Translations under genes and position numbers: made by a program
NCBI GenBank assembly: GCA_041666845.1
Contig: JBAYGC010000008.1
Coordinates: forward strand, 1 to 62,879
Source of the DNA: Patescibacteria group bacterium
GTDB lineage: Bacteria > Patescibacteriota > Patescibacteriia > UM-FILTER-42-10
Length of the DNA stretch: 62,879 nucleotides
Direction of reading: 5' to 3'
Shown: one piece after another, positions 877-37,900 of the stretch
How positions within the stretch are numbered: position 1 is the stretch's first letter
How the letters are laid out: each line of letters starts with the position of its first letter
Notes under the pieces: model-generated
What the model was told of the DNA's origin: nothing
The model's database searches: none
Seen by the model: only the letters and a program-made list of their open reading frames with translations

Positions 877-904
877 ATTATATGTTAACAAAATAATAAT
901 GCAA
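877..904 (-). promoter_or_regulatory. Sigma70-type promoter TTGCAT-16-TATAAT for the VanZ-like gene
   Basis: The minus strand reads cTTGCATtattattttgttaacaTATAATgaaatcattATG. Confidence 0.5.
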
Positions 905-944
905 GCATTTTAGCTAATAATAGCCAAATATTTCACCTTTGGTA

Positions 945-973
945 TTGACAAAATGCAGATTTAGGTATATACT
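945..973 (+). promoter_or_regulatory. Near-consensus promoter TTGACA-17-TATACT driving GC-rich cassette 1
   Basis: TTGACA is at 945-950, followed by a 17-nt spacer aaatgcagatttaggta and TATACT at 968-973. Confidence 0.6.
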
Positions 974-980
974 ACGCGGT

Positions 981-1235
981 TAACAATTGAATAGGTAGAG
1001 ACTCCTGCGTACCGCTCGCTTTGCGGCACTTCGGAGTCCGAGGGAGAGAGCTTTAGCAAAAATCGCCTTACGTTTGGATATTGCAACCTCAAATTATAGT
1101 ATGCAGACGTAAGGCCTTTTTCTTGGAATTACAACTCCAATCGCAAAAAAGAGAAAGCGCCTTTATTGTGAGAGAATGCGGTGGTCCTATTCCTGGATCG
1201 CCATTGACAACCGCCCCACTCGGGAGGAAAAGACG
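981..1235 (+). promoter_or_regulatory. Structured leader of about 255 nt with an internal terminator-like hairpin; candidate riboswitch, attenuator or sRNA
   Basis: A nested hairpin GACTCC..GTACCGC-TCGCTTT-GCGGCAC..GGAGTC lies at about 1001-1039. A 9-bp stem GCCTTACGT (1065-1073) pairs with ACGTAAGGC (1107-1115) and is followed by CTTTTTCTT. Confidence 0.35.
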
Positions 1236-2072
1236 ATGAAGTTCCGCACTCTGTTCATCCTGATGGCCGTCGTCCTGATGGCCAACATCGCGTTCGCTGC
1301 GACGGAGGTCACGCTGACCACGGCCCAGCAGGAGGAAGTCCTCAAGCTGCAGGCCGCCGGGCACCTCGCCCAGGCCGACAGCATGAAGACGGTCTTCACG
1401 GCCCAGGCCACGCTCGCTCTGCAGCAGGCCGCTGCCCGGGCCGAGCTCAGGAAGCTCGCGCTCAAGGCGAAGACCGACCGCGAGGCCGGATTCGCCAACG
1501 AGGTCGCGAAGCTCAGCTTCGAGGAATCGCTCAAGTGGGCCAACGACCCGAAGGGTGTTCGGGTGGAGCGCATCTCGTGGCTCAACGATCGTTGGGTCAA
1601 CCGGTTCGGCTTCACCGAGCCGGATTCCACCTCGTCACTGGACGAGGTGTATCTGCACCTGCAGCAGCAGGTTACCGAACGCCGCGACGCCGCCAAGCGC
1701 CGTGCCGAGATCGACGCCCGCGTCAGTGGCGCCGTCAATTCCCTGCAGAACAATCTGCAGAAGCAGATCGACGCCGGCGCCCGCGCTGACGTCCGGCTGG
1801 CCGAGTTCATCGGCAGGCAGGGCGACGAAATCGCCGAGTTGAAGGCTCAGGTCGCTGAGCTGAAGGAGTGGCAGCCCACCGTGGACTCCCGTCTGAGCAT
1901 CCTGCTCAACGAAGCCAACGCCGGCCGCGTGAACATCGCGGCCTGCATGAAGGCTCTCGAGTACGCGAAGTACAACCGCGAACCGAAAGCCGCAGATCAG
2001 GCGGCGAAGTTCGTGGCCAACGCCCAGGCCACCACCACGCCGGTGACGTTCCCCGCGAACGACACCGAGTAA
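1236..2072 (+). CDS. GC-rich orphan secreted Ala/Gln-rich coiled-coil protein (cassette 1)
   Basis: ATG at 1236 is preceded by GGGAGGAAAAGACG. The N-terminus MKFRTLFILMAVVLMANIAFA/ATE looks like a Sec signal with an AxA cleavage site. Codon third positions are GC-rich, with 43/60 GC at 1381-1440. The ORF-track start at 1176 is an upstream in-frame extension. I recognise no family. Confidence 0.65.
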   Translation: MKFRTLFILMAVVLMANIAFAATEVTLTTAQQEEVLKLQAAGHLAQADSMKTVFTAQATLALQQAAARAELRKLALKAKTDREAGFANEVAKLSFEESLKWANDPKGVRVERISWLNDRWVNRFGFTEPDSTSSLDEVYLHLQQQVTERRDAAKRRAEIDARVSGAVNSLQNNLQKQIDAGARADVRLAEFIGRQGDEIAELKAQVAELKEWQPTVDSRLSILLNEANAGRVNIAACMKALEYAKYNREPKAADQAAKFVANAQATTTPVTFPANDTE

Positions 2073-2091
2073 CTGCGAATCCGATTCGCAG
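2073..2091. repeat. GCGAAT..ATTCGC palindrome immediately after the cassette 1 stop codon
   Basis: CTGCGAATCCGATTCGCAG is a perfect 8-bp stem with a 3-nt loop. Confidence 0.6.
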
Positions 2092-2219
2092 AACCGTTCT
2101 TTCGTCGAGGATACCCTCGACCACCCCTCGTTCCCAAAAGGTTCCCATCTGTACCAAGCATTACGCCTTGGCAACTTACAGATGATCGGAGCCTTTTTTC
2201 TTTGCCAAAAAACAGCAGA

Positions 2220-2242
2220 CGCGAATATTTATTCGCGCCTAC
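2220..2242. repeat. REP-like palindrome with the 3' CCTAC flank
   Basis: CGCGAATATTTATTCGCGCCTAC shares the same core and 3' flank as the element at 403-434. Confidence 0.55.
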
Positions 2243-2268: not shown

Positions 2269-5200
2269 TTATGCTTTCAATTGTCCCAACCGTATATCAA
2301 TCACTTCAATAATCGCTTTATATCCTCTTGCAACAGACTCCAGATATTCAGGTGGCGCCTCTGCCGGTGGATTGTTTTGAATTCCCATAACAACTCCCTG
2401 TGCCCCTTCTTTCATATTTTCCAGAAGTGTTGTGTCATTCAAACTGGCAATATCATGCAGAGTGACACCTTCCAGACTTTTCAGGACATCGGGAGTAATA
2501 TTATCCATATTGGCCAGAATCCCGGTAAACAGGTTTTCTAATGCCGCCTTAATATCCATACCCGAGGCGGCAAATTGTCCATCGACAATCTCAGCTGGCT
2601 GCGGTGTTTGCTCAGTTGGTGACGCTTCAATAGGTTGAGTCTTTGGTACAGTATTTTCGGGTGTCACCGGAGGCACTTCAGTACTGTTAACAGCTGTTCC
2701 GGCATCTGGCGCTGGCGCGTTTACAGTGTCTTTAAGCACATCGCCAAATCTTGCTTCCAGTTGAGCAGTCGTGCTATGGATATGATCCTTTAAATACACT
2801 GCTTCGGGAGTATCCCCGTTTCCTGCCGCTTCCATCGTGCTTAATGAATGTTGCATTGCTTCCAATTGTCTCACGTTGTTTTCAAATACTACCTCATATG
2901 ATGCCATTGGAAGTTTTGTACCTTCTTCTGCATACTGCTGAGCAAGCATATCTCTGTATCCCTCATTCAGTGATGTAAGCGGGGACTTCATATCTTCAAT
3001 ATGCGGATGCACACCGATTATTTTTCCATCCGCTCCATAATCGAAACGGATTGCTGAACCATCGGGACTTTCAACGGCATGAATCGGTTCCACATTATCC
3101 GGAACTATTTTTGGAATTTCATTCTCCGCAGCAGCCAGTTCGGTCGGATTCAGATTCGGTGTTGCCAAAATTGCGGTTGTATTGTGCAGATCAAGATTCG
3201 CCTGTTCTGTAACCCTGCCCTCGATAATCTGCCGGACCGCTTCACCGATTTTTTGCGGGCCACCACTGGACGGATTAGTAATTTCTCCTTTTCTGATTGC
3301 GAGCTCAATTAGTTTTCGCAGTTTACCCCGATGACGTCCTTCCAGGTAATCCATTGTATTACCGGAATGGCCTTCAATATCTTTATTCAACAAATCTGCG
3401 ACTGATTTGTTCTTTAAAAATTCCCATTCCTGTTCACCCTGCCCGCCTTTGCCGAATCCTAATTTCTCAAGCATTTTTAGCTGGTCAGCCTTGGTCAGCT
3501 CCTGCACTCTTTGCAACCTCGCCGCTTCCGCCACAGCTTTTTCAGGATCTACCTCAGTTGTTTGCTCCGGCGTTGCTGGATTACTTACCACTTCTGGTTT
3601 ATTAGCTCCTTCGACATCACCGGAACCTCCGGTTACGCCGACACTAGAAGATTGAGCAGAACTTTTGGCATCATCCGAATCACCGAAGGAATCATCTTCC
3701 AACCTGTGTGCTTCAATCTTGCTGGCTTCTTCCATTAGTTTCGCGTGTGCGGCATCGCTGTTCATCGGCAATGGATCAAAATGTGTATCACCAATTCCGG
3801 TAATCATGCCGTGATCAATAGTTACCGTTTCACCGGCAAGATTGAAAGTTCCGGTATCCTGATCCGTCATGTGAATATCAGTGACATTCTCACCCAGACC
3901 GGTATGCGCGCCCGAATCATGCACCATCGCTTTGAATAAATGCCCTTCCGCCTGGTCAATCTGTGTGTGATCCAGGTGAACTTCGGCTCCTTCCGGTTTA
4001 GCCATGTCCGCCCATGTTTCATTCTTAATATCGTCCAAATAGGCCACCGCGCCGGTATTGCCGACATTTTCCGGAGTAATAATTTTTTCCGCATGCACAG
4101 TCAATTTATCCAAAACATCCCGATGAAACCCTTCGTAATCAGAAATTGTTATTTTACCGTCAACCACAGAAACATGGCGGGTAAAATCTTCCGCTGAGAC
4201 TCCCGCTACATTGTGTCCTTCGGAAAGGGCAGTCATATTGGCACCGACATTCAGAATTCTGGCACCCTCCACATTGGTAATTTCGTCACCGAGCTTCGCA
4301 TTTTCCATCGCTACTCTGTAGAATGCCTGCTCTAAATATTTTGGTGTGCCTTCTTTTCCTAAATCGAGTGTAAGTCCGACTTTGTCATGCGCAGTTTCAG
4401 CATGGAACCCGGCGTGATTCAGTGAAGCATGTTCCACTGGAAAACGCGCGGCCAGAACGGCATCATGGTTTACTAATCCCTTATCTTCCCAGGCAGCCAA
4501 AAGCTTGTCAGCATCGGCGCTTTTACTTCCGGCAAGTTCAGCAACAACTTTTTTCATTTCTTCCGGATTTACACCATCCTGCGAATTGATCCCGAGACTT
4601 GATTCTAAACTAGGCACCCTTGGTTCCGTTGCCAGTCCTGGAGTAGGTTGTTCCGTGCCAATCGGCGTGGTAACTTTCGGTTCAATATTTCCGCCATATT
4701 TGGGAATGCCAGTTTCAGTATTATTACCATGCACATCTAACTTTGACGCGTCAGGCAGACCAACTTTTATCGCATCTGGTGGAGTAGCTGTCGTCATTGT
4801 TTCGGCTGGATGTGCGCCAAATGTAGAAGTATAATCTTTCGGTTGTAGTACGCCGGAATGTTCTGTTTCTGGTTTAGTGATAAATGCCTTATCTTCCGGA
4901 GTGAGCACACCCTCCCCGCTAGTAGCGGTAACTCCGTGCGAAACCTGTGGTCCAGCTGTTCCTGCGGTATTAACATGATGCGCAACCGTCTCGTGCCCCA
5001 CTTCGGCAGCACCAGCTGTTGCGATACCTTTTGCTAAATCCTCATGTGGTACAGCGCCGGACGGGGAATAACCGCTATGCCCTTTATACAACCCCATGGT
5101 TGTACGACGCAGTGTTTCGTGCCAGTTTAATATCAATAAAAGTGCTCTGCCCGGATCACCGCCATGCGCCATTGATTCAATCGCTTTCTGAATTTCCTGA

Positions 5201-7599
5201 AATCTATCACCTGCATGTTCGATTGATTTACTGAAAGTCCCCGCTCCTTTTTCTGCAACTTCTGAAAAACCGGCTGCGGCAATCATTGCCGGCATTGCGG
5301 CTTTGGCCCAGGCACCAACTACACCTGCCGCTTTTTGCTTTCCTTTTAGCTCTTTCAATTTCCCCTGTCCGAACATTTCCAGCGCCATATCCCTAACGCC
5401 GTCTATAATCAGTTCTTTCGGAGTTACTCTTTCACCTTCTGTTTTCGTCGCTTTCAAATTCTTATATCTTTCACCCAGAGCAATAGCGCCTAGAGCACCC
5501 ATACGTACCGTAAAAGCGCCGGATACCACACTGATTCCGCCAACTGTTTCTTTGGCATAATCCATCCTCTTGGCCTTTTCACCGACATTCTGGTCAAGCT
5601 CACCGGTAATTTCCCCCAAGATTGTTCTTCTGAGACTTTCAAGTTTTTTTGTCCTTTTCACATCATGGTTCTCAATTTCCGTATCAATCTCACCCGTCAT
5701 CTCATTTTGGATTGCTGCCTCACCGGTAATCCATTTTTCCTCTAGCAATCCCAGTTTCTTTTCCAACGCTGTTCTTTTTTCCGGAGAGAGGTATTTAGAT
5801 TCCGCTATCTTACTTCTGATGGAATTGATTCTTTGCTGGATTCTGGTGTCTTCTGTCTCTGTTTCACCCAAATTTAATTCATTCAATCTGGTCTGGATTT
5901 TTGCTTTTTCCGCGGTATCTTTGGTTTTCTCCAGTCTTTTACGCAAATTACTTTCTTCAGTAACATCTTCCCTAATCCTGCGCACCTCGCCCATTCTGGC
6001 ATTTCTTTTTGCCCAGCGGTCCGCAAGACGTAAAGCTGTCTTAGCGCCGAAGAGATAAGAAACAAATTCCGCAGTTTTACCGGTTCCTAGCACAGCTTTC
6101 TCTATTACTCTTGCTTTGCTTTTTTCTTCCTGACTTACATACTCGCCTCGCCACATTCTGCCTAAGACAGATTTTCTTTCTTCCTGTTCTTTAGGAGGCT
6201 CTGTGTCCCCCTTCTTCCTTCTCCTGAGCCAACTCCACTTTCCCTTTGATTCTCCAACAGCATCATCCGCATCCTCTTCTGTAACATCCGGTGTCAAATC
6301 CGGAACACTCACATTCTCTTCTCCTAAGTTTTGTCTGATTAATGCCCCGAGTCTTGTTGAGTCGGCTTCAGTGAAAAAAGCACCGCCTTCCGGTTCATAA
6401 CCCTTCTGCAATAATGCCATTATTTCGGGATAGTTCGGGTTTTCTGTATCCAAATTTTTCAAAGATTCATGTTCCGCGAACACCATAACCGGACCATCAT
6501 CGGGATTTTCTTGTACAATTTTGGAATTAGCAATACGCATCTCCGAACCAAGCTGTTTGCTGGCAATCTGATCCTGAATTGTCACATCCGTCAATGGGTT
6601 ATCAGCCTTGCGTCTTTCATCCGAATTGTCATGTAGAAGCTTTGCATCTGCTAACTCCTCATATGTCCAAGACTCGCTCATTGCCAGCGGACTGGCAGTT
6701 AATCCCATCTGCTCCATTGCAGAATTAAACTTTTCTCTGATTTGAGTAACAATCGGTTCAAAATTTGGATCGTCTTTCATAGAATCCAAAGCATCAGCAT
6801 GCATATTTAACATTGCTACCTCTTCAGGAGAAATTCTAGAAATTTCCTCAGAACTTTTAGGAAAAGAATCAGAATACATCAGGAAACCCCTTGCGGTATC
6901 ACTTAATTTAACATTATTATTCTCAACATTTGTATCAGGAGTAGGAATAGCCCCAGCTGAAGAGTCCGCATCTGCAGGTGCTGGTACCGGGTTATCTTTC
7001 TTTCTTCGCAATAATCTGCTCCATCTGCTTCTTTTTGGATCATCACCGCCTGGCGGAGGAAGCTCTCCACTCATAGTCATCGTGCCGGCGCCGGGAATTG
7101 GACGTGGCGATTCCGGGGATTCGAAATAGCGCTCCCGATCCGTATGTTTTGGAAATCTATCATTAATCTCATTGTGCAGAATACCAATTCGCTCAACTGT
7201 TGCATCCCTGGCAAGCATAATCTTTTGGAGTGCTTGATCATTCATACGAGGATTGCGTGGCGCCTCCTGCATTAATAAATCGTACTTGCTTAAAAGCTGT
7301 CTGTATTCCGTATGTGTTCTCTGGAGTTGCGCAGTTTCCATTCTTTGCCAATCTCTACGAAGCAAATCAACAGCTTTTACACCTAGACCTGATAATTGAT
7401 CCAATTGCTGTGAGGGCATTTCACCTTTCTTAAAAAGCGCAAGACGATCATGATACTGCTTGCGATTCACGTCTGTGATTTTTTCATCTGCATCTAATGC
7501 ACCATCTAATTCTTCGAATGAGCGAGCATCTGAGATACTCAGGCGACGTCTATCATATTGCCTATGGTCATCTCTATTTCGAAATTGTGATTCTGGCAT
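2269..7599 (-). CDS. Orphan giant protein (about 1776 aa; 1807 aa if started at 7692), no recognisable domain
   Basis: One uninterrupted ORF. I see no signal peptide. It has long charged helical or coiled-coil stretches (KRLEKTKDTAEKAKIQTRLNEL), Gly/Ala-rich hydrophobic segments (GGISVVSGAFTVRMGALGAIALG, AAGVVGAWAKAAMPAMIAAAGF) and His/Thr/Gly-rich regions. The start at MPESQ (7599) avoids overlap with the upstream gene that ends at 7610. Confidence 0.8.
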   Translation of the reverse strand: MPESQFRNRDDHRQYDRRRLSISDARSFEELDGALDADEKITDVNRKQYHDRLALFKKGEMPSQQLDQLSGLGVKAVDLLRRDWQRMETAQLQRTHTEYRQLLSKYDLLMQEAPRNPRMNDQALQKIMLARDATVERIGILHNEINDRFPKHTDRERYFESPESPRPIPGAGTMTMSGELPPPGGDDPKRSRWSRLLRRKKDNPVPAPADADSSAGAIPTPDTNVENNNVKLSDTARGFLMYSDSFPKSSEEISRISPEEVAMLNMHADALDSMKDDPNFEPIVTQIREKFNSAMEQMGLTASPLAMSESWTYEELADAKLLHDNSDERRKADNPLTDVTIQDQIASKQLGSEMRIANSKIVQENPDDGPVMVFAEHESLKNLDTENPNYPEIMALLQKGYEPEGGAFFTEADSTRLGALIRQNLGEENVSVPDLTPDVTEEDADDAVGESKGKWSWLRRRKKGDTEPPKEQEERKSVLGRMWRGEYVSQEEKSKARVIEKAVLGTGKTAEFVSYLFGAKTALRLADRWAKRNARMGEVRRIREDVTEESNLRKRLEKTKDTAEKAKIQTRLNELNLGETETEDTRIQQRINSIRSKIAESKYLSPEKRTALEKKLGLLEEKWITGEAAIQNEMTGEIDTEIENHDVKRTKKLESLRRTILGEITGELDQNVGEKAKRMDYAKETVGGISVVSGAFTVRMGALGAIALGERYKNLKATKTEGERVTPKELIIDGVRDMALEMFGQGKLKELKGKQKAAGVVGAWAKAAMPAMIAAAGFSEVAEKGAGTFSKSIEHAGDRFQEIQKAIESMAHGGDPGRALLLILNWHETLRRTTMGLYKGHSGYSPSGAVPHEDLAKGIATAGAAEVGHETVAHHVNTAGTAGPQVSHGVTATSGEGVLTPEDKAFITKPETEHSGVLQPKDYTSTFGAHPAETMTTATPPDAIKVGLPDASKLDVHGNNTETGIPKYGGNIEPKVTTPIGTEQPTPGLATEPRVPSLESSLGINSQDGVNPEEMKKVVAELAGSKSADADKLLAAWEDKGLVNHDAVLAARFPVEHASLNHAGFHAETAHDKVGLTLDLGKEGTPKYLEQAFYRVAMENAKLGDEITNVEGARILNVGANMTALSEGHNVAGVSAEDFTRHVSVVDGKITISDYEGFHRDVLDKLTVHAEKIITPENVGNTGAVAYLDDIKNETWADMAKPEGAEVHLDHTQIDQAEGHLFKAMVHDSGAHTGLGENVTDIHMTDQDTGTFNLAGETVTIDHGMITGIGDTHFDPLPMNSDAAHAKLMEEASKIEAHRLEDDSFGDSDDAKSSAQSSSVGVTGGSGDVEGANKPEVVSNPATPEQTTEVDPEKAVAEAARLQRVQELTKADQLKMLEKLGFGKGGQGEQEWEFLKNKSVADLLNKDIEGHSGNTMDYLEGRHRGKLRKLIELAIRKGEITNPSSGGPQKIGEAVRQIIEGRVTEQANLDLHNTTAILATPNLNPTELAAAENEIPKIVPDNVEPIHAVESPDGSAIRFDYGADGKIIGVHPHIEDMKSPLTSLNEGYRDMLAQQYAEEGTKLPMASYEVVFENNVRQLEAMQHSLSTMEAAGNGDTPEAVYLKDHIHSTTAQLEARFGDVLKDTVNAPAPDAGTAVNSTEVPPVTPENTVPKTQPIEASPTEQTPQPAEIVDGQFAASGMDIKAALENLFTGILANMDNITPDVLKSLEGVTLHDIASLNDTTLLENMKEGAQGVVMGIQNNPPAEAPPEYLESVARGYKAIIEVIDIRLGQLKA

Positions 7600-7609
7600 T
7601 GTTTTTAAA

Positions 7610-7957
7610 TTAAATGTCTTGTATCTTTTTTTGAATTTGTTTGATCTGTTCCGCTCCTTCTTCTTCGATGATCTCATGCTCAAGTGCTTCAAACTCCTTT
7701 TCTGTCTGACCTTCCAATTCTGCTCTTTTTACATCATAACTTTGCTTCAAATCCATCAGAGCTGATTTTAGTTTTTCGGTATCTTCCTGACTACCTTTGG
7801 TAAATTTCTCAATTTGTAATAATATCTCTTCCAATTTATCGTCTTCAATGCGAACAATCATTTCAATCAGCAACAATCTTAAATCAGGATCAAGCGGTGC
7901 CCCCTTAATTAGTTCCGCGGCACGGACTAGTAATTTTGAATCGGGATTTGTCGGCAT
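7610..7957 (-). CDS. Small acidic helical protein, paralog of 7969-8295
   Basis: 115 aa. It shares LKQSYDVKRAEL / VKQKYDTKKDDL and EALEHEI / DLEKEI blocks with its neighbour and lies in the same operon as the giant ORF. Confidence 0.7.
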   Translation of the reverse strand: MPTNPDSKLLVRAAELIKGAPLDPDLRLLLIEMIVRIEDDKLEEILLQIEKFTKGSQEDTEKLKSALMDLKQSYDVKRAELEGQTEKEFEALEHEIIEEEGAEQIKQIQKKIQDI

Positions 7958-18016: not shown

Positions 18017-18583
18017 TCATATTTGCATTAATGAATAACTATCCAAGACAAACAGTGCTAATGTTAGCAATAGTATCAGGTACAAGATTCTTTCGGTTAT
18101 GCCGCCCGTTTTTATCCTGAATGGTTTCGGCAATAAGTGAAAATTCTGTTTCCAGGGCCAGAGCAACGGAACACCATGATGAGTCATACCATCAGCAATT
18201 ATGTGACTGGCATAACCCAGCGTTAATACTAACCAAAACTCGTGGCCAACAATTTCTACCCATTGACCCAAAAACAAAAACAGAAAAAAACTTCCCCACC
18301 CCACCAAAATTACAGCCAGTATGGAATGGAAAGCCCCTCTATGCTTAAAAACAGATGACACAATCCAGCTGAGTAAATAAAAGGGTTTGAGCGCAATCCG
18401 ATTTCTTCCTCGACCGTAGCCGACCTCCAAGTGTTTGATTTTGGAATCTGACGCATCTAAATCAGGCAGTAAACCACCCAAAACTCCGACTAAAATTAAA
18501 AACGGGTTCCAAGAAAAACCGGAAAATAATGCTAATACCCAAACAGTGTTTGCACCGATAACAGCGTGTGTTGAACCTTTCAT
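18017..18583 (-). CDS. Membrane-bound metal-dependent hydrolase (YdjM/DUF457 family)
   Basis: 188 aa with MKGSTHAVIGA.., LLPDLDASDSKI, HRGAFHS and ASHIIADGMTHHGVPLLWPW. Confidence 0.75.
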   Translation of the reverse strand: MKGSTHAVIGANTVWVLALFSGFSWNPFLILVGVLGGLLPDLDASDSKIKHLEVGYGRGRNRIALKPFYLLSWIVSSVFKHRGAFHSILAVILVGWGSFFLFLFLGQWVEIVGHEFWLVLTLGYASHIIADGMTHHGVPLLWPWKQNFHLLPKPFRIKTGGITERILYLILLLTLALFVLDSYSLMQI

Positions 18584-18639: not shown

Positions 18640-18668
18640 TTGACCTAATATTAGCCAAGTGATATAAA
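18640..18668 (+). promoter_or_regulatory. Promoter TTGACC-17-TATAAA driving GC-rich cassette 2
   Basis: TTGACC is at 18640-18645, followed by a 17-nt spacer and TATAAA at 18663-18668. Confidence 0.55.
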
Positions 18669-18674
18669 GGAAGT

Positions 18675-18849
18675 GCCCAAATCTCGGGCATTTGCACCTA
18701 CCAAACAAGCTTCGGAAAGGGAAGTTTGTTACAACATCTTGACCAAAAAGGGAGGTCTTTCGTTTTACGTGTCCATTCACGTGTCGCACACCTCGTGTAT
18801 CAACTTCAGCCTGCGACGTCAGGGCTCGAACACGTACGGAGGCAACGAC
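18675..18849 (+). promoter_or_regulatory. Structured leader of about 175 nt for cassette 2
   Basis: Three hairpins: TGCCC-aaatctc-GGGCA (18674-18690), a 10-bp stem AACAAGCTTC-ggaaagg-GAAGTTTGTT (18704-18730) and ACGTG-tccatt-CACGT (18767-18782). Confidence 0.4.
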
Positions 18850-19350
18850 ATGAGACGACTACACTGGCCGCGGTTCGCGGTCTTCCTGATGGTCATCGCG
18901 ACCTTCGCGATCATGACGGCGGCGGCCAACGGCATTGCGAGCGCCACGGCCCCGCGCCCCATCGACGAGCTGAACAGCGCTTCGGTCATCTACAGGGCCT
19001 ACGCGCAGAGCGACGGTACGATCGTCAACACCGAGACGACGGCTGTCGACGTGGAGAACGCGGACGACGCCTACATCGACAACGGCGCGACCGCGATTCT
19101 GTGGTGGAGCCACGCGGCTATGCCGACGACCACGCTAAACCAGCGCGGCGCCAGCATTTCGACAATGGCGATGATCGGCGGAACCGACCAGTCCTCTTCA
19201 CCTACGGGGATGCGTGATTCCGTTGGCATTCATTTCACCGCCGTCACCAGTGACGGCATCGCTCGCTACAACGCGAAGAAGATGGCCCAGGTGGCCGAGA
19301 AGAAGATCGTCAAGACGACGAACACGAGCGACGGCGTGATCCGCGTGTAG
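18850..19350 (+). CDS. GC-rich orphan secreted or membrane-anchored protein (cassette 2)
   Basis: ATG at 18850 is preceded by GGAGGCAACGAC. The N-terminus MRRLHWPRFAVFLMVIATFAIMTAAANGIASA looks like a signal sequence. GC is 45/60 at 18901-18960. The ORF-track start at 18673 lies in the AT-rich leader. I recognise no family. Confidence 0.6.
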   Translation: MRRLHWPRFAVFLMVIATFAIMTAAANGIASATAPRPIDELNSASVIYRAYAQSDGTIVNTETTAVDVENADDAYIDNGATAILWWSHAAMPTTTLNQRGASISTMAMIGGTDQSSSPTGMRDSVGIHFTAVTSDGIARYNAKKMAQVAEKKIVKTTNTSDGVIRV

Positions 19351-19399
19351 ATCCGACCCTTCGTCGGACACGTTGAAGGGTTACACCTTCCTTTCGTGG

Positions 19400-19434
19400 C
19401 CCGTCCCAGACTGACATGGGACGGGTATTTTTTA
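19400..19434 (+). terminator. Rho-independent terminator of cassette 2
   Basis: CCCGTCCCA-gactgaca-TGGGACGGG followed by TATTTTTT. Confidence 0.85.
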
Positions 19435-19460
19435 TTTATTGAAACAAAAATATTCCTCAA

Positions 19461-19506
19461 GTAAAGCGAATTTATTCGCTTTTGGTTCGAATAAATTCGA
19501 ACCTAC
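19461..19506 (+). repeat. REP-like doublet (two palindromes ending in CCTAC)
   Basis: GTAAAGCGAATTTATTCGCTTTTGGTTCGAATAAATTCGAACCTAC. The last 25 nt or more are identical to the copy at 19926-19972. Confidence 0.75.
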
Positions 19507-19651
19507 CCCAAAATAATTATCCAGACTTGCTTAATTCGAATTCACCGAATGATAATAAATTTTCTGCATCAATCAATCTCATCAATTGTAATTGTTGAGT
19601 CGTACTCAGGTTATCTCGAATGACATCACTTGAGATAACCAGTAATCACAA

Positions 19652-20167
19652 TCAATCGATTTTATCAATCATCATTATTGAATTACCATCCTCGTAGTAA
19701 TTACGCCATGAGGAGTATTTCCAGTCCTCCGGATTTTTCACATACCCATGTTTGACCGGGTTGTTATGAATATAGTTTAGTTTTTCAACCAATTTTTTTT
19801 CAGAATAGATGTTGAAGTCATAAAAGCTTTTTTGCCAAACATTCCCTCTTCTTTTAAGATACCTGTCTATTTCTCTGGCGCTTACCCCTTTTATACGTTG
19901 AACAACATAAGATATATTACCACGGGTAGAGGCGAATTCATTCGCTTCCGGTTCGAATAAATTCGAACCTACCCAAAGTTTTAACAATAAATGTACATGA
20001 TTTGGAATAAATATATACCCAATCAAATGAAACTTTAATTCATATCTCAATCGATCGATAACATCCAGAAAAATCCTACAGCAAGTATCATCACTAAAAT
20101 ACGGGACACTGTTAATAGTCCTCGTCGTAACAAAATGCACTTGCCCGGGAATATTATAGCGCTTCAT
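19652..20167 (-). CDS. REP-associated tyrosine transposase (RAYT; IS200/IS605 TnpA-like Y1 HUH enzyme)
   Basis: 171 aa with the HUH motif PNHVHLLL and a catalytic Tyr context LNYIHNNPVKHGY. Length and order fit COG1943/RayT. About 15-16 extra residues (WVGSNLFEPEANEFAS) are encoded by a REP doublet. The start overlaps the upstream gene stop by 4 nt. Confidence 0.8.
   Translation of the reverse strand: MKRYNIPGQVHFVTTRTINSVPYFSDDTCCRIFLDVIDRLRYELKFHLIGYIFIPNHVHLLLKLWVGSNLFEPEANEFASTRGNISYVVQRIKGVSAREIDRYLKRRGNVWQKSFYDFNIYSEKKLVEKLNYIHNNPVKHGYVKNPEDWKYSSWRNYYEDGNSIMMIDKID
19926..19972 (+). repeat. REP-like doublet lying in-frame inside the RAYT gene
   Basis: GTAGAGGCGAATTCATTCGCTTCCGGTTCGAATAAATTCGAACCTAC is in the same orientation as 19461-19506 and nearly identical to it. 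Confidence 0.75.
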
Positions 20168-23759: not shown

Positions 23760-25232
23760 TTATAGCATCTGTAGTGTGTCCAATCGCTTTTTTCTTTTTG
23801 TAAAAAAAATCATAAGAACAACAATCAATAAATAACCGACGACCAACAGTGCCTGGGAAAATTCAGAAATATTGATTGAAGCAAATGGTAAATTGGAAAA
23901 TAATTTTACAACCTGAATGATATAAGTGAGCAGTAGCCAGACAATCGATGAAAACACCGTACCCAGTGGCGGATAGATCAATGACAGCAATCCGGTCAAA
24001 AAACCGACGCCCATCGCAAACGGTATCACCGGCAGAATCAGGATGTTGACCAGAATGGCGACAACCGACAGCCTGCCGAACTGATAAAGAATCAGTGGTA
24101 ATGTAAAAATAGTGGCCGAAGTGGTTGCGATGAATGACTCCCTGATTTGAAATATGTTTGGCAACCAAGCAAATGTTCTTTCCAGCAGCGGTGACAGGTA
24201 GATTAAACCCATTGTGGCTAAAAATGAAAGCTGAAATCCGGCATCAAATATCAGTATTTTAGGATTAACCAAAAGCATAATCACCGCGGCAAGGACTAAG
24301 ACATTGGTAATACGCGAAAGACGCCCTAGCTGTTTGGCAATCAATATAATAACTCCCATAGTCACCGCACGCACGACCGAGGACTGCGCACCGGTTATTA
24401 GCATGAAAAACAGTAAAGTAACAATAATTATCCAAAAAGCTTGTTTTCTGGGAATTGCTATGTTTTTACACAGCGCTAACAGGAGTACAGCGATGATTGT
24501 TATGTTGTAACCCGAGATTGCCACAATGTGGGTCGTGCCAGTCCGGCTGAAATCCTCCATCAGATCATCAGGAATTCCTCTTTTCGCACCCAGGAGCAAC
24601 CCGCCGAGAAATGAGGTTTGAGGCTCTGGAAGCTGTTGATTGATAGTCTGGGTAAATTTGTTTTTTATCCCGTACATACGCGATAAAATTACTGAGCCAT
24701 TATTTTTAGAAATTACTTTAAGATAAGGACGGTAACAAATTGAATATATGCCGAAGCGCGATAAATATTTATCATAGGCAAAATCTTCTATTTTTTCCGG
24801 CGCTTCCAGATTGCATTTTATTTCTAAGCGATCCCCGTACTGATATTCCGGAAATAATTCCGTGTTGAGCAAAACCTTGCCGGAAAAATCTTCCGGCCTG
24901 ACTGTCAGTTTTGCCTGTTCTTTGCGGACATCGGGTTCTTCAATAACTATTCCCCGGAATTCCTTTTCCGATCCGTTATAAAACGCGATGTGCTTTTCAC
25001 TAATTATCGGTTGCGATAAATCATAGCGCCAAATTCCAAGTACAATCGCAAGCAAACAAAGCAGTAATAACCGCCATAACTTTTTCTGCCATAAGAAAAT
25101 CAAAAATACGGTCAGACCGATAAATAAAGCATAGACAAAAAATGGATCAAAATTTATTCCAAATGATGCGATACCAATACCGCAGATAAAGCTGATTAGA
25201 AAATATAGAAATATTTTTGATTTTCCCATCAA
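23760..25232 (-). CDS. comEC: ComEC/Rec2 DNA-uptake channel (DUF4131 plus competence domain only)
   Basis: 490 aa, polytopic. It has an OB-like N-terminal part, then THIVAISGYNITII and GAQSSVVRA as in ComEC. It lacks the MBL domain, which is encoded separately at 20164-21030. Confidence 0.8.
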   Translation of the reverse strand: MMGKSKIFLYFLISFICGIGIASFGINFDPFFVYALFIGLTVFLIFLWQKKLWRLLLLCLLAIVLGIWRYDLSQPIISEKHIAFYNGSEKEFRGIVIEEPDVRKEQAKLTVRPEDFSGKVLLNTELFPEYQYGDRLEIKCNLEAPEKIEDFAYDKYLSRFGIYSICYRPYLKVISKNNGSVILSRMYGIKNKFTQTINQQLPEPQTSFLGGLLLGAKRGIPDDLMEDFSRTGTTHIVAISGYNITIIAVLLLALCKNIAIPRKQAFWIIIVTLLFFMLITGAQSSVVRAVTMGVIILIAKQLGRLSRITNVLVLAAVIMLLVNPKILIFDAGFQLSFLATMGLIYLSPLLERTFAWLPNIFQIRESFIATTSATIFTLPLILYQFGRLSVVAILVNILILPVIPFAMGVGFLTGLLSLIYPPLGTVFSSIVWLLLTYIIQVVKLFSNLPFASINISEFSQALLVVGYLLIVVLMIFFTKRKKRLDTLQML

Positions 25233-34934: not shown

Positions 34935-37900
34935 TTAACTTGGTGGTGACCAATTAGTAATCCAAAAGTTATCCGTGGCTTCAGCTGAATAGTTGAAACA
35001 AGGGCAGTTTGAGCCGGTGTACCCCATACAGGCATCCAAGCCAAAGAACCGGCCAGGCCATGCTGAAGTGTTAAATCCTCCAGTTCCGACATATTCCAAA
35101 TTCGTGAACAAATACGCGTTTGTTGATTCCTTAAGATATGCGTATGTGTGAGAACCGGTCGGACAATTAAACGTATGCGCGGTATCGTTCCAGCAAGTGC
35201 CTGCCGGATCATAAGGCGGAACCGCACAATTGACAGTAGGATTATTGAATTCATTAATTGGATCAAGTGGCGGATTCATTCCGATTGCGTTACCGAATTC
35301 CGCCATCCATGACGGCCATTTGCTGGAAGTTAACCCCGGCAGGAAAGTGCCCGCGGCAAGCTCCGGAAAATCACCATTGTTAAATTGGTAATTCAACAGG
35401 AGATATCCGATTTCACCTAAATCGGTTACCCGTTTCGTATCCCGGACTATACACTCCTTGTTTGTATCGCCAGGCGCAAGAGCACATACATTCATGAGGC
35501 TTGCGGGAGCAGAGTTGAAAAACCAATTTTCAACCATTTGATTGTAAATATTTACTGTTTGTCCGTTCGCACTGTCATTATAAGAAACCAGATAAATATT
35601 CGGCCAAAGCGTAGTACCCGCGAGATTAGTCGCGGCTACATAAATAGTCCTGCCCGCCCGACAGGCCTGATAGCCATCCACTGCATTAATTGGAACACAC
35701 GAACCGGTATCCTCGGGAAACATCTGATTGAACCATGCTGAAGGCGAGAGGAAGCTTTGATTTTCCATTACCCTGATTCCTATTACATCACCAGATGTAT
35801 TTGCGCTAGTGCAGGAAGCAACGTCTGAATCACATGTTGAGAAGAAAACTTCCCTCAATAATTCATCAACACCATTAATGGTCGGCGTATGATTGACATT
35901 GATTATTGGATTAGCCATGCCAGGTAGTCCTCCGTCACGACAATAGTATGTAGTAAAATTTTGCGGCTCAATAACCGATACCCCGGCCGGATACATATAG
36001 TTCGGATTATTGGGCCATGGATTATCACATGACTCCACTCTGGCGTTCACAATCGCCGATCCAGAACCCGCAGCACCTAAGTCCACATCTGCTCTGATTT
36101 GCTCAGTGCCATCCAGACCCAATGTGCCCACGTGAGTAAACCGATTATTTGGAGATTCCACATTTAACACACCATTTGTGCTTGAACCGCTCCAGTCATA
36201 TGTAGCACCTGTAAGTAAATAATTTCCTGACGCATCCACAGCAGATGCAATATATCGGTGCTGATTGCCGTTAATTACACTCGTCATATCGTCAGCACAA
36301 TCATTTCTTTTACAAGTATACATATCCTGAGATGCATTGTATGTCGTAGTTGGTCCAGGCATATACTGAATATCAACTTTAACGTGATCAATATTACATA
36401 ACGTATCTCCGGCTGTAAAATGAGATACATAGTCACTAGACATGCCAATAAAATATTGATTAGCTGCCCGAGCATTAATTGTTATTGTAAATGAATGGCT
36501 GGCTGGCCACGGTAAATCCGGTGAGAATTGAAAGATGGTGTGATCATCGCTAAAATAGCTGGTTAATGTCCCATCAATTAATAAAGAAGTGGAGTCGTCA
36601 GTAACTGTAAATACCCCTAAATCAGTAACAGAACCTTCGTCCATAATCTGATCAAACTCAACCACGATACCCCGATTCATACAGACATCAGTTTCGCCGT
36701 CGTACGGGTTTATACTAACCACATTTGGTCTGCTGGAACAGCACATTGTTCCCCCACCCATATCACCACAACCGATATTGGCAGGGTCGCCACACTGAGC
36801 ATCTGTAGTACAACCACAATAGAGACCCCGATCATTCGCACCGCCCAAGCAATCTCCCTGATTTACCATACAGGTTAGACCGTTATATGTATCTCCTGGC
36901 CGGCAGCAAAAACGGCAATCGTCACCTGCTATTGCATCCATCGGTAATTCACCGGTATTACTGATGCACTCATAACCGGATGGTGGGTATATCGGACCAA
37001 GTGAACAATTAGGATGAGAAGATATTTGGCACAGGTCGCCCGGTAAGCCACCACTGCACATAGCGGAGTCCGAACATTGTCCGGCATAACAACATCCGGT
37101 TGAACATTCGGTATTATCGGCACAAGTGACATAAAAATTTACCGGATTACTACCATTGACCGTTACGCCATTTGAGCCGATGCTAGAGACAGCATTTGAA
37201 GGAATATCTATGCCCTCAACCAAAGTATCACTCCAATCAGTTAATATTCCAGACCAAGTTGACCGACCACCTGCATCATTTAAAAAACTAACGTTGCCGG
37301 AAGTACCAAATCCTTCCCCCACTGCCGCGGTCGCATCTGTTTCCCCCTGTTTTCCGTCAGACGGGTCAAGATAACAAAGATTTGGAGTCGAGGGACCACC
37401 TATGGTAAAACCGCTAAGGGTAGTCGTATTGCCATACTGGTTTGTAAGACGAATTGGTCCGCTAATAGCGTCATCACTCGTGTCAGCTGTATCTTCATTC
37501 GGTACTTCCACTACTACAGAATCATCTGTCCAAGTTGATCCGGCTGGTCCGCAAATTGCCGGGAAGATAGCATTAACCCACGGTGTCCCGGTAAATTCAA
37601 CATTTGCCGAACCAGTATAAGTGCCAAACATACATCCCGCAATTGTCACAAAATTACCTACCGGAGCACTAATAGGATTGATACTCTGAATAACTGGCGA
37701 ACAATGTGGTGTCGGGCTAAGCATACAAACACTACCCGGGCAGCTTGAACAATCTGCATCGTCCTGACAAAAGGTACGATCAACAGTAAGCTGACGTGCT
37801 GCCGGTGGAATTGAAGTGCCAGCAGCAGAACTATTAACTGTGACAGTTCCATCGACACCAGTAGCTAAATATGTGTAATTTGCCTGATTTGTTTGAGGAC

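What the first reader, a model, noticed from the sequence alone, without database searches (positions are those of the whole stretch)
18640..19434. Cassette 2: a GC-rich secreted orphan flanked by a strong terminator and a REP doublet, 300 nt from the RAYT gene
ORF 18850-19350 encodes MRRLHWPRFAVFLMVIATFAIMTAAANGIASA/TAP... and has about 75% GC on the sampled line 18901-18960. The GC shift starts near 18770, inside the leader, and ends at the CCCGTCCCA..TGGGACGGG terminator (19400-19434). A REP doublet follows 27 nt later at 19461-19506. The RAYT gene ends at 19652 on the opposite strand.

The leader contains three perfect hairpins, including a 10-bp stem at 18704-18730.
Basis: partly seen in the sequence, partly recalled or inferred. 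Interest (0 to 1): 0.7.

Follow-up and report, generated by a model that had tools for sequence, protein, structure and literature searches.

The report
GC-rich hypervariable secreted-protein gene in Patescibacteria
A small secreted-protein gene in an AT-rich, ultra-small (Patescibacteria) bacterium sits at one fixed chromosomal site in all its relatives, changes its protein sequence very fast, and keeps a far higher G+C content than the rest of the genome, so it is not a fresh foreign insert but a long-resident gene whose composition is actively maintained for an unknown reason.

Summary
Window 18640-19445 is a self-contained transcription unit: promoter, about 175-nt leader, 166-aa ORF with a signal peptide, three 3' hairpins. 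It is 61% GC from 18770 to 19434 and has GC3 0.86, against 0.41 +/- 0.04 for 46 host genes. A REP doublet and a RAYT gene follow.

The interpretation needs revision. The ORF is not a singleton and not a recent insert. It belongs to a family of about 8 alleles, the only relatives found among 1.84 billion representative proteins. Every allele with enough flanking sequence lies next to ydjM, in independently assembled Patescibacteria genomes. All are GC-rich (GC3 0.77-0.86). One lineage has the gene without RAYT or REP. A Kerfeldbacteria outgroup has neither.

Promoter, leader elements and terminator are conserved. The mature-protein region is hypervariable: nonsynonymous to synonymous-only codon differences are 46-56 to 5-19, against 15:49 in ydjM. 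Indels stay in frame and alleles are mosaic.

GC3 is as high in hypervariable codons and new insertions (0.82-0.83) as in conserved ones (0.79), so GC-richness is being maintained. A second GC-rich secreted gene (1236-2072) behaves the same and shares an exact 14-nt upstream motif. The cause of the GC maintenance is unresolved.

The parts
18640..18668 (+). Promoter: -35 TTGACC (18640-18645), 17-nt spacer, extended -10 TGaTATAAA (18660-18668)
   Evidence: Conserved almost base-for-base in 8 orthologous loci. The consensus scanner did not call it, because it requires T at position 6 of the -10 hexamer. Promoter function is inferred from conservation and geometry.
18645..18658 (+). 14-nt motif CTAATATTAGCCAA (core palindrome CTAATATTAG) inside the promoter spacer; putative operator
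   Evidence: CTAATAWTAGCCAA occurs with 0 mismatches exactly twice in 62.9 kb: here and at 914-927, upstream of the other GC-rich gene. It is conserved in orthologues of both genes. A regulatory role is inferred.
18673..18691 (+). 5'-terminal stem-loop of the predicted mRNA (GUGCCC...GGGCAU)
   Evidence: Predicted in the MFE and centroid folds. Three of its 4 consensus pairs show compensatory changes across 8 loci: UA/CG, GC/AU, CG/UA.
18704..18730 (+).
   Evidence: It is present only in the window, L001, L015 and L008, with compensatory A-U to G-C changes. The whole segment is absent from L014, L010, L009 and L004, so it is dispensable.
18783..18817 (+). Invariant leader element GUCGCA...UGCGAC (6-bp stem enclosing a 23-nt variable loop); GC-rich composition begins about here
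   Evidence: The stem bases are identical in 8 of 8 loci while the loop varies. There is no covariation because the stem does not vary. Function unknown.
18838..18842 (+). Shine-Dalgarno GGAGG, 7 nt before the ATG
   Evidence: Seen directly. The GGAG(G)-spacer-ATG arrangement is conserved in all loci.
18850..19350 (+). CDS, 166 aa: signal peptide (about residues 1-32, cleavage after A-S-A by inspection), conserved N-terminal motif (DELNSA...AQ-DGT), hypervariable centre with indels, conserved C-terminal block ending GVIRV
   Evidence: GC3 is 0.86. This is the only frame open in all 8 orthologues, and all indels are multiples of 3. Family alignment. No Pfam, NCBIfam, PHROG, PADLOC or PDB match. 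The AlphaFold model is unusable (pLDDT 38.8).
19352..19398 (+). Two 3' UTR hairpins between the stop codon and the terminator
   Evidence: fold z = -5.3 for 19348-19445. The first hairpin shows a GC/CG compensatory change.
19399..19437 (+). Intrinsic terminator: 10-bp stem, 8-nt loop, T-tract
   Evidence: It is conserved in 8 loci, with compensatory changes at 2 pairs and G-U/G-C alternation.
19461..19506 (.). REP doublet (REPIN-like): GTAA-aGCGAATTTATTCGC on the + strand and GTAG-GTTCGAATTTATTCGAAC on the - strand, facing each other
   Evidence: The GTAG/CTAC feet are seen directly. Copy number here differs between genomes: three CGAAT..ATTCG hairpin cores in the L001 spacer, one core in L008, a different single hairpin in L004/L009, and none in L014. 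It is a neighbour, not a part, of the gene unit.
19652..20167 (-). RAYT (REP-associated tyrosine transposase) gene, convergent with the cassette and overlapping the MBL-fold gene by 4 nt; carries a second REP doublet in frame (19926-19977)
   Evidence: NF047646 109.8 bits, PF01797. dN/dS 0.12 against L001. It is absent from L014/L026 and L005.
18017..18583 (-). ydjM-family membrane hydrolase gene, divergent from the cassette; the constant neighbour of the family
   Evidence: PF04307. It is adjacent to the GC-rich gene in every locus that has flanking sequence.

Best explanation
Window 18640-19445 is a monocistronic gene for a small Sec-exported protein. It belongs to a tiny family restricted to one clade of Kerfeldbacteria-related Patescibacteria. 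In every locus with flanking sequence it lies at one chromosomal position, divergent from ydjM.

Shown:
1. The unit is old and positionally stable, not a recent insert, and it is independent of the adjacent RAYT/REP element.
2. Its expression signals are conserved: an extended -10 promoter, a covarying 5'-terminal hairpin, an invariant leader stem, GGAGG, and a highly structured 3' end.
3. The mature-protein part evolves with omega of about 1 or higher, with many multi-hit codons and in-frame indels. It exists as sharply distinct allelic types that are shuffled between lineages by homologous recombination.
4. GC-rich third positions are kept at about 0.8 in all alleles, including codons and insertions that have completely turned over. 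The GC-richness is therefore a maintained state.

Inferred:
- The protein is an abundantly made extracellular or surface factor under diversifying selection, for example at the interface with the host cell or with phages.
- The 5' and 3' hairpins stabilise its mRNA.
- The shared 14-nt motif co-regulates it with the second GC-rich secreted gene at 1236-2072.
- GC-richness probably began with an old acquisition of GC-rich DNA into a spacer that is a recurrent landing site. It has since been held up by a fixation bias towards G/C. That bias is either selection on the nucleic acid (mRNA stability or structure) or GC-biased gene conversion at a recombination hot spot. I could not separate these two.
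For: Family and synteny:
- There are only 7 hits among 1.84e9 representatives and 6 among 5.8e9 proteins.
- Every hit with context lies between ydjM and RAYT/MBL.
- The metagenome promoter scan re-finds the same loci in further assemblies.

Composition:
- GC3 is 0.77-0.86 in all 8 alleles, in genomes of 36-45% GC.
- Host GC3 is 0.411 +/- 0.041.

Conservation of signals.

Fast protein evolution:
- NG86 omega is 0.6-1.3 in all 21 pairs, against 0.02-0.07 for ydjM.
- Nonsynonymous to synonymous-only codon differences are 56:15, 46:5 and 55:19, against 15:49, 42:75 and 9:7 for ydjM. Between 20 and 27 of the changed codons per pair are multi-hit.
- In the closest genome pair, L004-L009, 30% of cassette codons are replaced against 5% in ydjM.
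- Only the annotated frame is open in all 8.

Mosaicism:
- Mature-domain identity is 0.81-0.82 within types and 0.52-0.57 between types. The signal-peptide segment groups differently.
- 4-fold divergence for L008-L015 is 0.05 in the cassette against 0.57 in six host genes.

Maintained GC:
- GC3 is 0.82 in hypervariable codons, 0.83 in lineage-specific insertions and 0.79 in conserved codons.
- Strict 4-fold polarised changes are S>W 4 and W>S 3, with 84 S and 18 W opportunities, which implies an equilibrium GC of about 0.78.
- In the sister gene, 4-fold sites are nearly saturated (0.52, against my estimated ceiling of about 0.60), yet GC3 stays 0.84-0.885.
- S>S to S>W at 4-fold sites is 6:9 in the two cassettes against 20:149 in the host (Fisher p = 0.009).

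Not host-type translational selection: the L20 gene uses AAA and GAA, whereas the cassettes use AAG 21:1 and CAG 22:0.

Independence from RAYT: L014/L026.

Landing-site behaviour: L005 has only a REP-like palindrome in a 78-nt spacer. L014 has foreign thiolase/DUF35-like genes (GC 0.56-0.58) there.
Against: - There is no expression, localisation or function data. Secretion rests on reading the N-terminus by eye.
- The structure could not be modelled (pLDDT 38.8).
- Omega of about 1 is also what complete relaxation of constraint gives. Only frame preservation and the conserved N- and C-terminal blocks argue for a functional protein.
- At all third positions the polarised counts are S>W 23 against W>S 6. 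That differs from 1:1 (p = 0.002) but not from the 9:1 expected for pure decay (p = 0.064), so some net loss of GC is possible.
- The strict 4-fold counts are small. P = 0.096 against host-like decay.
- Cassette 4-fold divergence is lower than that of the flanks in most pairs. That makes the alleles younger than the genomes and weakens any time calibration.
- Flanking genes also give discordant groupings, so recombination is not special to this gene.
- Known bacterial gBGC effects on GC3 are small on average (from memory; PMC4450053 shows only the positive association), whereas here the difference is 45 points.
Confidence: 0.6

Rival explanations
1. Relic of one old horizontal transfer that is simply ameliorating. 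A GC-rich gene landed next to ydjM in the clade's ancestor. It looks GC-rich today only because its alleles have spread between lineages recently, so they have had less time to decay than the flanking genes suggest. No force maintains GC.
For: - Third-position changes are S>W 23 and W>S 6, compatible with 9:1 decay.
- Cassette 4-fold divergence (0.05-0.28) is well below that of the flanks (0.42-0.59), so alleles are younger than genomes.
- GC3 is lowest (0.77-0.79) in the L004/L009/L010 branch.
- The same spacer took up other GC-rich foreign genes in L014.
Against: - GC3 is just as high in hypervariable codons and lineage-specific insertions (0.82-0.83) as in conserved codons.
- The strict 4-fold flux is balanced, 4:3.
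- The sister gene has near-saturated 4-fold sites with unchanged GC3 of 0.84-0.885.
- S>W changes are under-represented relative to S>S, compared with host genes (p = 0.009).
- No donor family exists anywhere.
Confidence: 0.2
2. One reading: a recently acquired foreign cassette inserted or mobilised in association with the REP doublet and the RAYT transposase.
For: - REP-like cores in the window (7 found, 0.72 expected) lie only at the two GC-rich gene loci and inside RAYT.
- The outgroup L005 lacks both RAYT and the gene.
Against: - The gene is present at the same site in all 8 relatives, with a conserved host-like promoter.
- L014/L026 have the gene without RAYT or REP.
- REP number next to the gene varies freely between genomes.
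- From general knowledge, RAYTs mobilise REP/REPIN elements and not cargo genes.
Confidence: 0.05
3. Repeated re-import from a GC-rich partner organism. The episymbiont keeps replacing this gene with versions taken from its GC-rich host, by recombination at the conserved leader and terminator.
For: - Codon usage is typical of a genome of about 65% GC.
- Alleles are mosaic and discordant.
- A competence (ComEC-like) gene lies nearby at 23760-25232 (Pfam Competence and DUF4131 on the L001 orthologue).
Against: - There is no homologue outside this Patescibacteria clade in 1.84e9 representatives, 5.8e9 clusters, phages or plasmids.
- Nucleotide identity across the cassette is similar to that of the flanks.
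- The signal peptide and C-terminal block are clade-specific and conserved.
Confidence: 0.07
4. Not a protein gene. The GC-rich segment is a structured non-coding RNA, and the ORF is a by-product of the scarcity of stop codons in GC-rich DNA.
For: - GC-rich islands in AT-rich genomes often mark structured RNAs (general knowledge).
- Other frames have few stops, and the -1 frame of L015 has none.
- Synonymous sites are better conserved than nonsynonymous ones within allelic types.
Against: - Strong 3-base periodicity: GC1/2/3 is 0.52/0.51/0.86.
- All indels are in frame, and only this frame is open in 8 of 8.
- The SD-ATG arrangement and signal peptide are conserved.
- No Rfam hit even at E <= 1.
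Confidence: 0.03

Closest known systems
Borrelia vls antigenic-variation locus (vlsE and silent cassettes)
   Same: It is a gene for an exported, hypervariable protein whose G+C content is far above that of an AT-rich genome and is held there across species. vls cassettes average 49.1% G+C against about 28.6% for the chromosome, and the authors infer strong pressure to maintain it (PMC11499132). Variation is recombination-driven.
   Different: No silent cassette array or partial copies exist in the 63-kb window. There is no GC skew (-0.016) and only 2 G-runs, whereas vls has skew of about 0.5 and G3-5 clusters. Variation here is seen between lineages, not shown within a clone. There is no sequence similarity.
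GC-biased gene conversion at highly recombining bacterial genes (Lassalle et al. 2015)
   Same: Recombining genes have higher GC3, and this is not explained by optimal codons (PMC4450053). Here a gene with clear mosaic recombination has elevated GC3 made of non-optimal codons.
   Different: The magnitude differs: +45 points of GC3 confined to one 0.7-kb transcript, while the neighbours also recombine and stay at 0.36-0.52.
Compositionally atypical genomic islet acquired by horizontal transfer
   Same: There is an abrupt GC and codon-usage discontinuity. The unit is absent from an outgroup, lies in a spacer that also received other foreign genes (L014), and has a mobile-element gene beside it.
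   Different: It is not patchy among relatives. No donor is detectable, it has its own conserved host-type promoter, and its composition is not ameliorating at the expected rate.
REP/REPIN-RAYT systems (Nunvar 2010; Bertels and Rainey 2011; recalled from memory)
   Same: The neighbouring element fits. It has a Y1 transposase of the RAYT equivalog family, and GTAG-footed palindromes paired in inverted orientation next to it, placed after a terminator between convergent genes.
   Different: This describes the neighbour, not the GC-rich gene. Unusually, one REP doublet lies in frame inside the RAYT coding sequence rather than upstream of it.
Subtelomeric GC-rich secreted-protein genes of Cryptosporidium (PMC10438818, title and abstract only)
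   Same: Both are GC-enriched regions within a comparatively AT-rich genome. My recollection, which the part of the paper I read does not confirm, is that these subtelomeric regions are enriched in fast-evolving secreted-protein genes.
   Different: It is a eukaryote with subtelomeric, meiotic recombination. I did not read the paper in depth.

Membership tests
REP/RAYT element (applies to the neighbour at 19461-20167) | Transposase of the RAYT clade of HUH/Y1 (IS200-like) enzymes | tested here: met
   NCBIfam NF047646 'REP-associated tyrosine transposase', 109.8 bits against a cut-off of 80, full-length match. Pfam PF01797.
REP/RAYT element (applies to the neighbour at 19461-20167) | REP = short imperfect palindrome with a conserved GTAG-type tetranucleotide at its 5' foot | tested here: met
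   GTAG-GTTCGAATTTATTCGAAC on the - strand (19484-19506). GTAG-AG-GCGAATTCATTCGC on the + strand in the internal copy, and GTAA in the 19461 copy. Seen directly.
REP/RAYT element (applies to the neighbour at 19461-20167) | REPs flank the RAYT gene and are dispersed in many copies in the genome | tested here: inconclusive
   One doublet lies downstream and one is inside the ORF, not upstream. Only 7 REP-like cores occur in 63 kb, all at three places. The whole genome was not available.
Cargo of a mobile element (GC-rich gene mobilised with RAYT/REP) | Gene and mobility element co-occur and move together | tested here: not met
   L014/L026 have the gene without RAYT or REP. The gene is always next to ydjM, and no second genomic location was found.
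Recently acquired genomic island | Atypical base composition and codon usage | tested here: met
   GC3 is 0.86 against 0.41 +/- 0.04.
Recently acquired genomic island | Patchy presence among close relatives and identifiable donor lineage | tested here: not met
   It is present in all 8 relatives and absent only from the outgroup L005. There is no homologue outside the clade.
Integron gene cassette | Promoterless ORF followed by an attC site, in an array next to an integron integrase | tested here: not met
   The unit has its own conserved promoter and a 175-nt leader. It is single, not in an array. The neighbours are ydjM and RAYT. No integrase was seen in the flanks examined.
Diversity-generating retroelement target | Template repeat near the variable region; differences confined to adenine positions of the template; reverse transcriptase nearby | tested here: not met
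   There is no repeat of the cassette in the window. Differences are spread evenly over codon positions (26/26/29) and are not limited to particular bases. I did not search the window's ORFs for a reverse transcriptase domain.
vls-type cassette antigenic variation | Adjacent array of silent cassettes, strong GC skew and G-runs on the coding strand | tested here: not met
   The only shared feature is G+C far above the genome.
Sec-dependent secreted protein | N-terminal signal peptide: basic n-region, hydrophobic h-region, small-x-small cleavage site | tested here: inconclusive
   MRRLHWPRFAVFLMVIATFAIMTAAANGIASA|TAP fits by inspection, and the pattern is kept in all 8 alleles. No signal-peptide predictor was available, and there is no experimental evidence.
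Known cis-regulatory or structured RNA families (Rfam 15) | Covariance-model match at or near the gathering score | tested here: not met
   There is no family at gathering score in the window apart from tRNAs. Only chance-level hits over the REP region appear at E <= 1.

The most novel reading that the evidence does not exclude
This clade of Patescibacteria keeps a small, co-regulated set of hypervariable secreted-protein genes (at least the two in this window, marked by the same 14-nt motif) in a separate compositional state. GC3 is held about 45 points above the genome equilibrium, over timescales at which synonymous sites turn over. If so, this is a new bacterial example of a compositional compartment for contingency or host-interface genes. 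It could be produced by extreme GC-biased gene conversion fed by natural competence. Alternatively it could reflect selection on the mRNA itself: resistance to AU-directed RNases, deliberately slow decoding of an exported protein, or, most speculatively, codon usage matched to a GC-rich partner cell.
Probability: 0.3. Interest if true: 0.75.

Novelty: new variant of a known kind. Interest (0 to 1): 0.55.

Why it matters
Almost nothing is known about the molecules that Patescibacteria (CPR) episymbionts use at the interface with their hosts. A clade-specific, strongly signalled, exported protein that diversifies this fast and is exchanged between co-occurring lineages is a good candidate for such a factor, or for a phage-receptor or decoy protein.

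The locus is also a clean natural test case for an open question in bacterial genome evolution: what pushes G+C upward against AT-biased mutation? Two short genes hold GC3 near 0.85 inside a genome at 0.41. Their boundaries are sharp and there are many alleles, so selection on the nucleic acid and GC-biased gene conversion make different, testable predictions from population data.

Practically, the finding shows that a GC island beside a transposase is not necessarily a recent import.

Tried and rejected
1. Misassembly: rejected. The same island appears in at least 9 independent assemblies.
2. Function by homology: Pfam, NCBIfam, PHROGs, PADLOC and the PDB sequence profile gave nothing.
3. Structure: the AlphaFold2 model of the family had pLDDT 38.8, so I did not run a fold search on it. 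The sister gene modelled as long helices (pLDDT 71.6) but has no PDB fold match.
4. Phage or plasmid origin: no tblastn hit. The viral-contig locus scan could not run because the family alignment has no conserved stretch of 7-10 residues.
5. DGR or silent-cassette mechanism: no repeats of the gene in the window, and the substitutions are not base-specific.
6. vls-like G4 mechanism: no GC skew or G-runs.
7. Host-type translational selection: rejected by the codon usage of the L20 gene.
8. My first S>S against S>W test on all third positions was confounded, because C<->G changes at 2-fold sites are nonsynonymous. I redid it on strict 4-fold sites, which left much less power.
9. Cassette-specific horizontal transfer inferred from discordant phylogeny: weakened, because the flanking genes (DsbA, MBL) are discordant too. 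Nucleotide identity also shows no sharp block.
10. Low NG86 dS as evidence of synonymous constraint: partly an artefact of strong codon bias and multi-hit codons.
11. Regulon search with the promoter pattern in metagenomes: this found only the known family plus unrelated AT-rich loci.
12. Known leader RNA: none in Rfam. The leader as a whole is not unusually stable.
13. Literature: I found no paper describing GC-rich secreted genes in Patescibacteria.
Full report
**1. What is there**

The window is about 42.6% GC. It looks like a Patescibacteria genome: its closest relatives are MAGs labelled 'Patescibacteria group bacterium' and Candidatus Kerfeldbacteria.

Between ydjM (18017-18583, minus strand; PF04307) and a RAYT transposase gene (19652-20167, minus strand; NF047646, 109.8 bits) lies a compact plus-strand unit. 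Its parts, in order:
- -35 TTGACC (18640-18645), a 17-nt spacer, and an extended -10 TGaTATAAA (18660-18668).
- A leader of about 175 nt.
- GGAGG (18838-18842) and ATG at 18850.
- A 166-codon ORF ending at 19350.
- Two small hairpins.
- A 10-bp terminator stem with a T-tract (19399-19437).

The consensus promoter scanner does not call this promoter, because it insists on T at the last -10 position. I accept the promoter because it is conserved nearly base-for-base in eight genomes.

**2.

- GC is 0.75 in 18901-18960 and 0.61 over 18770-19434. The flanks are 0.415 and 0.32.
- The ORF has GC1/GC2/GC3 of 0.515/0.509/0.862. The 46 host ORFs of the window have GC3 of 0.411 +/- 0.041, with a maximum of 0.516.
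- The only other outlier is the ORF at 1236-2072 ('cassette 1', GC3 0.885).
The leader as a whole is no more stable than shuffles (z = -1.07). The 3' UTR is far more stable (z = -5.3).
- The REP doublet (19461-19506) is a pair of GTAG-footed palindromes facing each other, that is, REPIN-like. A 91%-identical copy lies inside the RAYT ORF.

**3. It is neither an assembly artefact nor a singleton**

The word-indexed search of 5.8 billion clusters found one homologue (60% identity), and a profile search found five. An exhaustive HMMER scan of 1.84 billion representatives found seven proteins in all, none from a GC-rich organism.

Every member with flanking sequence lies next to ydjM and divergent from it: L001, L004, L008, L009, L014, L015-L017. 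L010 is a short contig with no flanks. A metagenome scan with the promoter pattern re-found the same loci in further assemblies (L020, L022, L026, L028).

All alleles are 58-64% GC with GC3 of 0.77-0.86, in genomes of 36-45% GC. Across about 309 kb of fetched related sequence, the only GC islands are these two genes plus one foreign insert in L014/L026.

**4. Insertion boundaries and the RAYT question**

- In the Kerfeldbacteria outgroup L005 (YdjM 70% identical), the MBL-fold gene is followed by ydjM after only 78 nt. That spacer holds a GTAG...CTAC palindrome.
- In the window's clade the same spacer holds RAYT plus the GC-rich gene, about 1.6 kb in total.
- In L014/L026 it holds the GC-rich gene plus two thiolase/DUF35-like genes of foreign composition (GC 0.56-0.58), with no RAYT or REP.

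So the gene and the transposase are separable, and the spacer is a recurrent landing site.

The conserved unit runs from the -35 hexamer to just past the T-tract. The 56 nt between ydjM and the -35 hexamer, and the REP region downstream, are variable. Three CGAAT..ATTCG hairpin cores lie in the L001 spacer between the cassette and RAYT. L008 has one exact core there plus degenerate copies. L004/L009 have a different single hairpin, and L014 has none.

**5. How it evolves**

Expression signals are conserved:
- The promoter block is conserved.
- A stem-loop lies at the predicted 5' end of the mRNA. Three of its four pairs show compensatory changes.
- An invariant GUCGCA...UGCGAC stem lies in the leader.
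- The SD-ATG arrangement is kept.
- The terminator shows compensatory changes.

The coding region behaves very differently from its neighbours:
- Against L001 the neighbours have dN/dS of 0.03-0.12. The cassette has dN/dS of about 1.0.
- Across all 21 pairs omega is 0.6-1.3.
- At codon level, nonsynonymous to synonymous-only differences are 56:15, 46:5 and 55:19 in three sister pairs. For ydjM they are 15:49, 42:75 and 9:7.
- Between 20 and 27 of the changed codons per pair differ at two or three positions.
- In the closest genome pair, L004-L009 (ydjM 4-fold divergence 0.04), 30% of cassette codons are replaced, and cassette 4-fold divergence is 0.15.

Even so, all indels are multiples of three, only this frame is open in all eight alleles, and the signal peptide, an N-terminal motif and a C-terminal block ending GVIR(V/A/G) persist. 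This argues for a functional but very freely evolving protein.

**6. Mosaic alleles**

The mature-domain region falls into sharply distinct types. The window and L001 are 0.81 identical, and L008 and L015 are 0.82 identical. Cross-type identity is 0.52-0.57, and L004/L009, L014 and L010 form further types. The signal-peptide segment groups the genomes differently.

For L008-L015, 4-fold sites differ by 0.05 in the cassette (0 of 48 S-S sites differ) against 0.57 in six host genes. Alleles are therefore younger than the genomes that carry them. They have spread by homologous recombination, and two of these lineages co-occur in one metagenome.

One caveat applies. Flanking genes also give discordant groupings, and nucleotide identity shows no sharp block. 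Recombination is general here, not unique to this gene.

**7. Is the GC-richness a relic or maintained?**

Host-type translational selection is excluded. The L20 gene prefers AAA and GAA, while the two GC-rich genes use AAG 21:1 and CAG 22:0, with only 4% A-ending codons.

Evidence for some decay: polarised changes at all third positions are S>W 23 and W>S 6. That is compatible with decay, but it is inflated by parsimony bias and mixes site classes.

Evidence for maintenance:
- At strict 4-fold sites the flux is balanced: S>W 4 and W>S 3, from 84 S and 18 W opportunities. That implies an equilibrium near 0.78. Power is low (P = 0.096 against host-like rates).
- S>W changes are under-represented relative to S>S, compared with host genes (6:9 against 20:149, p = 0.009).
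- GC3 is 0.82 in hypervariable codons and 0.83 in lineage-specific insertions, against 0.79 in conserved codons.
- In cassette 1, 4-fold sites between the window and L018 differ by 0.52. My estimated ceiling for this composition is about 0.60. GC3 is 0.885 and 0.84 in the two.

Together these favour an ongoing bias towards G/C over simple slow amelioration, but they do not exclude some net decay. I could not discriminate between selection on the nucleic acid and GC-biased gene conversion (PMC4450053).

**8. The sister gene**

Cassette 1 (promoter about 945-973, CDS 1236-2072) is also positionally fixed, in the order L20, vanZ, cassette 1, giant protein.
- It is GC-rich in all orthologues.
- It evolves fast: 100 nonsynonymous against 50 synonymous-only codons, where L20 has 7:26.
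- It carries a signal peptide and is predicted to be all-helical.
- It is followed by a terminator and a REP.
- The exact 14-mer CTAATAWTAGCCAA occurs only twice in the window, once upstream of each of the two genes.

I read that motif as a shared operator. This is inference.

**9. Comparison with known systems**

The neighbour is a bona fide REP/RAYT element. The GC-rich gene is not its cargo. The gene fails the defining tests for a recent island, an integron cassette, a DGR target and a vls-type system (see the membership table).

What it most resembles functionally is a contingency or antigenic-type locus for an exported protein. The closest precedent for 'G+C held far above an AT-rich genome at a hypervariable exported-protein gene' is Borrelia vls (49% against 28.6%; PMC11499132). 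This gene lacks vls's silent cassettes, GC skew and G-runs.

**10. Verdict**

The unit is an old, site-fixed, strongly signalled gene for a fast-diversifying exported protein. Its GC-rich composition is maintained rather than freshly imported, and REP/RAYT is an incidental neighbour. Function and the cause of the GC maintenance remain inferred.

Interest is moderate (0.55). The protein is a plausible host- or phage-interface factor of a poorly understood bacterial group. The pair of genes is also a sharp natural test case for what drives G+C upward in bacteria.

Noticed in passing
window 19926-19977 (inside RAYT ORF 19652-20167, minus strand); also L001 11117-11168, L008 ~7098-7130, L015 ~6885-6896: A complete REP doublet (GTAG...CTAC) lies in frame inside the RAYT coding sequence, translated as ...VGSNLFEPEANEFAST..., between the HVHLL motif and the rest of the domain. 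The ORF stays 171 aa in four genomes, has dN/dS of about 0.12, and still matches the RAYT model end to end. It could be an autoregulatory target or a tolerated self-insertion.
   Followed up: partly
window 900-2240 (CDS 1236-2072, plus strand): A second GC-rich (GC3 0.885) secreted, all-helical, fast-evolving protein gene is fixed between vanZ and a giant 1807-aa protein gene in all relatives. It has the same 14-nt upstream motif (914-927), a terminator and a REP (2222-2235). L011 carries an extra GC-rich 119-aa paralogue upstream.
   Followed up: partly
window ~1063-1125 (leader of the 1236-2072 gene): The AT-rich leader contains a conserved terminator-like hairpin, GCCTTACGT...ACGTAAGGCC followed by TTTTTCTT, about 110 nt before the start codon. 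It is also present in L011 and L018. This suggests attenuation or a riboswitch-like control. There is no Rfam match.
   Followed up: partly
window 1005-1050: A GC-rich hairpin (GACTCC...GGAGTC) is inserted in the cassette-1 leader of the window. It is absent from the orthologous leader of L011.
   Followed up: no
L005 ~5925-5960: The 'empty' MBL-ydjM spacer of the Kerfeldbacteria outgroup contains a perfect GTAG-footed palindrome (GTAGGCGAAACGCCGGCGTTTCGCCTAC). REP-like elements therefore occupy this spacer even where no RAYT is adjacent.
   Followed up: no
L014 2176-4466 (= L026 ~3321-5260): In the lineage without RAYT, the same spacer holds a thiolase-like gene and a zf-ChsH2/DUF35-like gene of foreign composition (GC 0.56-0.58, GC3 0.59-0.65, against host 0.22-0.34). 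This looks like a separate horizontal acquisition at the same site.
   Followed up: partly
window 20164-20167: The RAYT start codon overlaps the stop of the upstream MBL-fold (ComEC-C-like) gene by 4 nt (ATGA). This suggests translational coupling of a transposase-family gene with a host gene.
   Followed up: no
window 2269-7692 and 34935-40739 (minus strand): Two giant ORFs (1807 and 1934 aa) of ordinary composition. The first lies immediately downstream of, and convergent with, cassette 1 in all relatives. No Pfam domains are on record for its orthologues.
   Followed up: no
L025 217-241 (JQIA01028499.1): A near-identical promoter block (ATTGCCCTAATATTAGCTTTTATGGTATAAAG) lies about 220 nt upstream of an AT-rich ORF that begins MAKVTMRDMLQA, in an unrelated contig. 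I recalled a resemblance to class II fructose-bisphosphate aldolase but did not check it. The CTAATATTAG-containing promoter may be a more general strong-promoter type in Patescibacteria.
   Followed up: no
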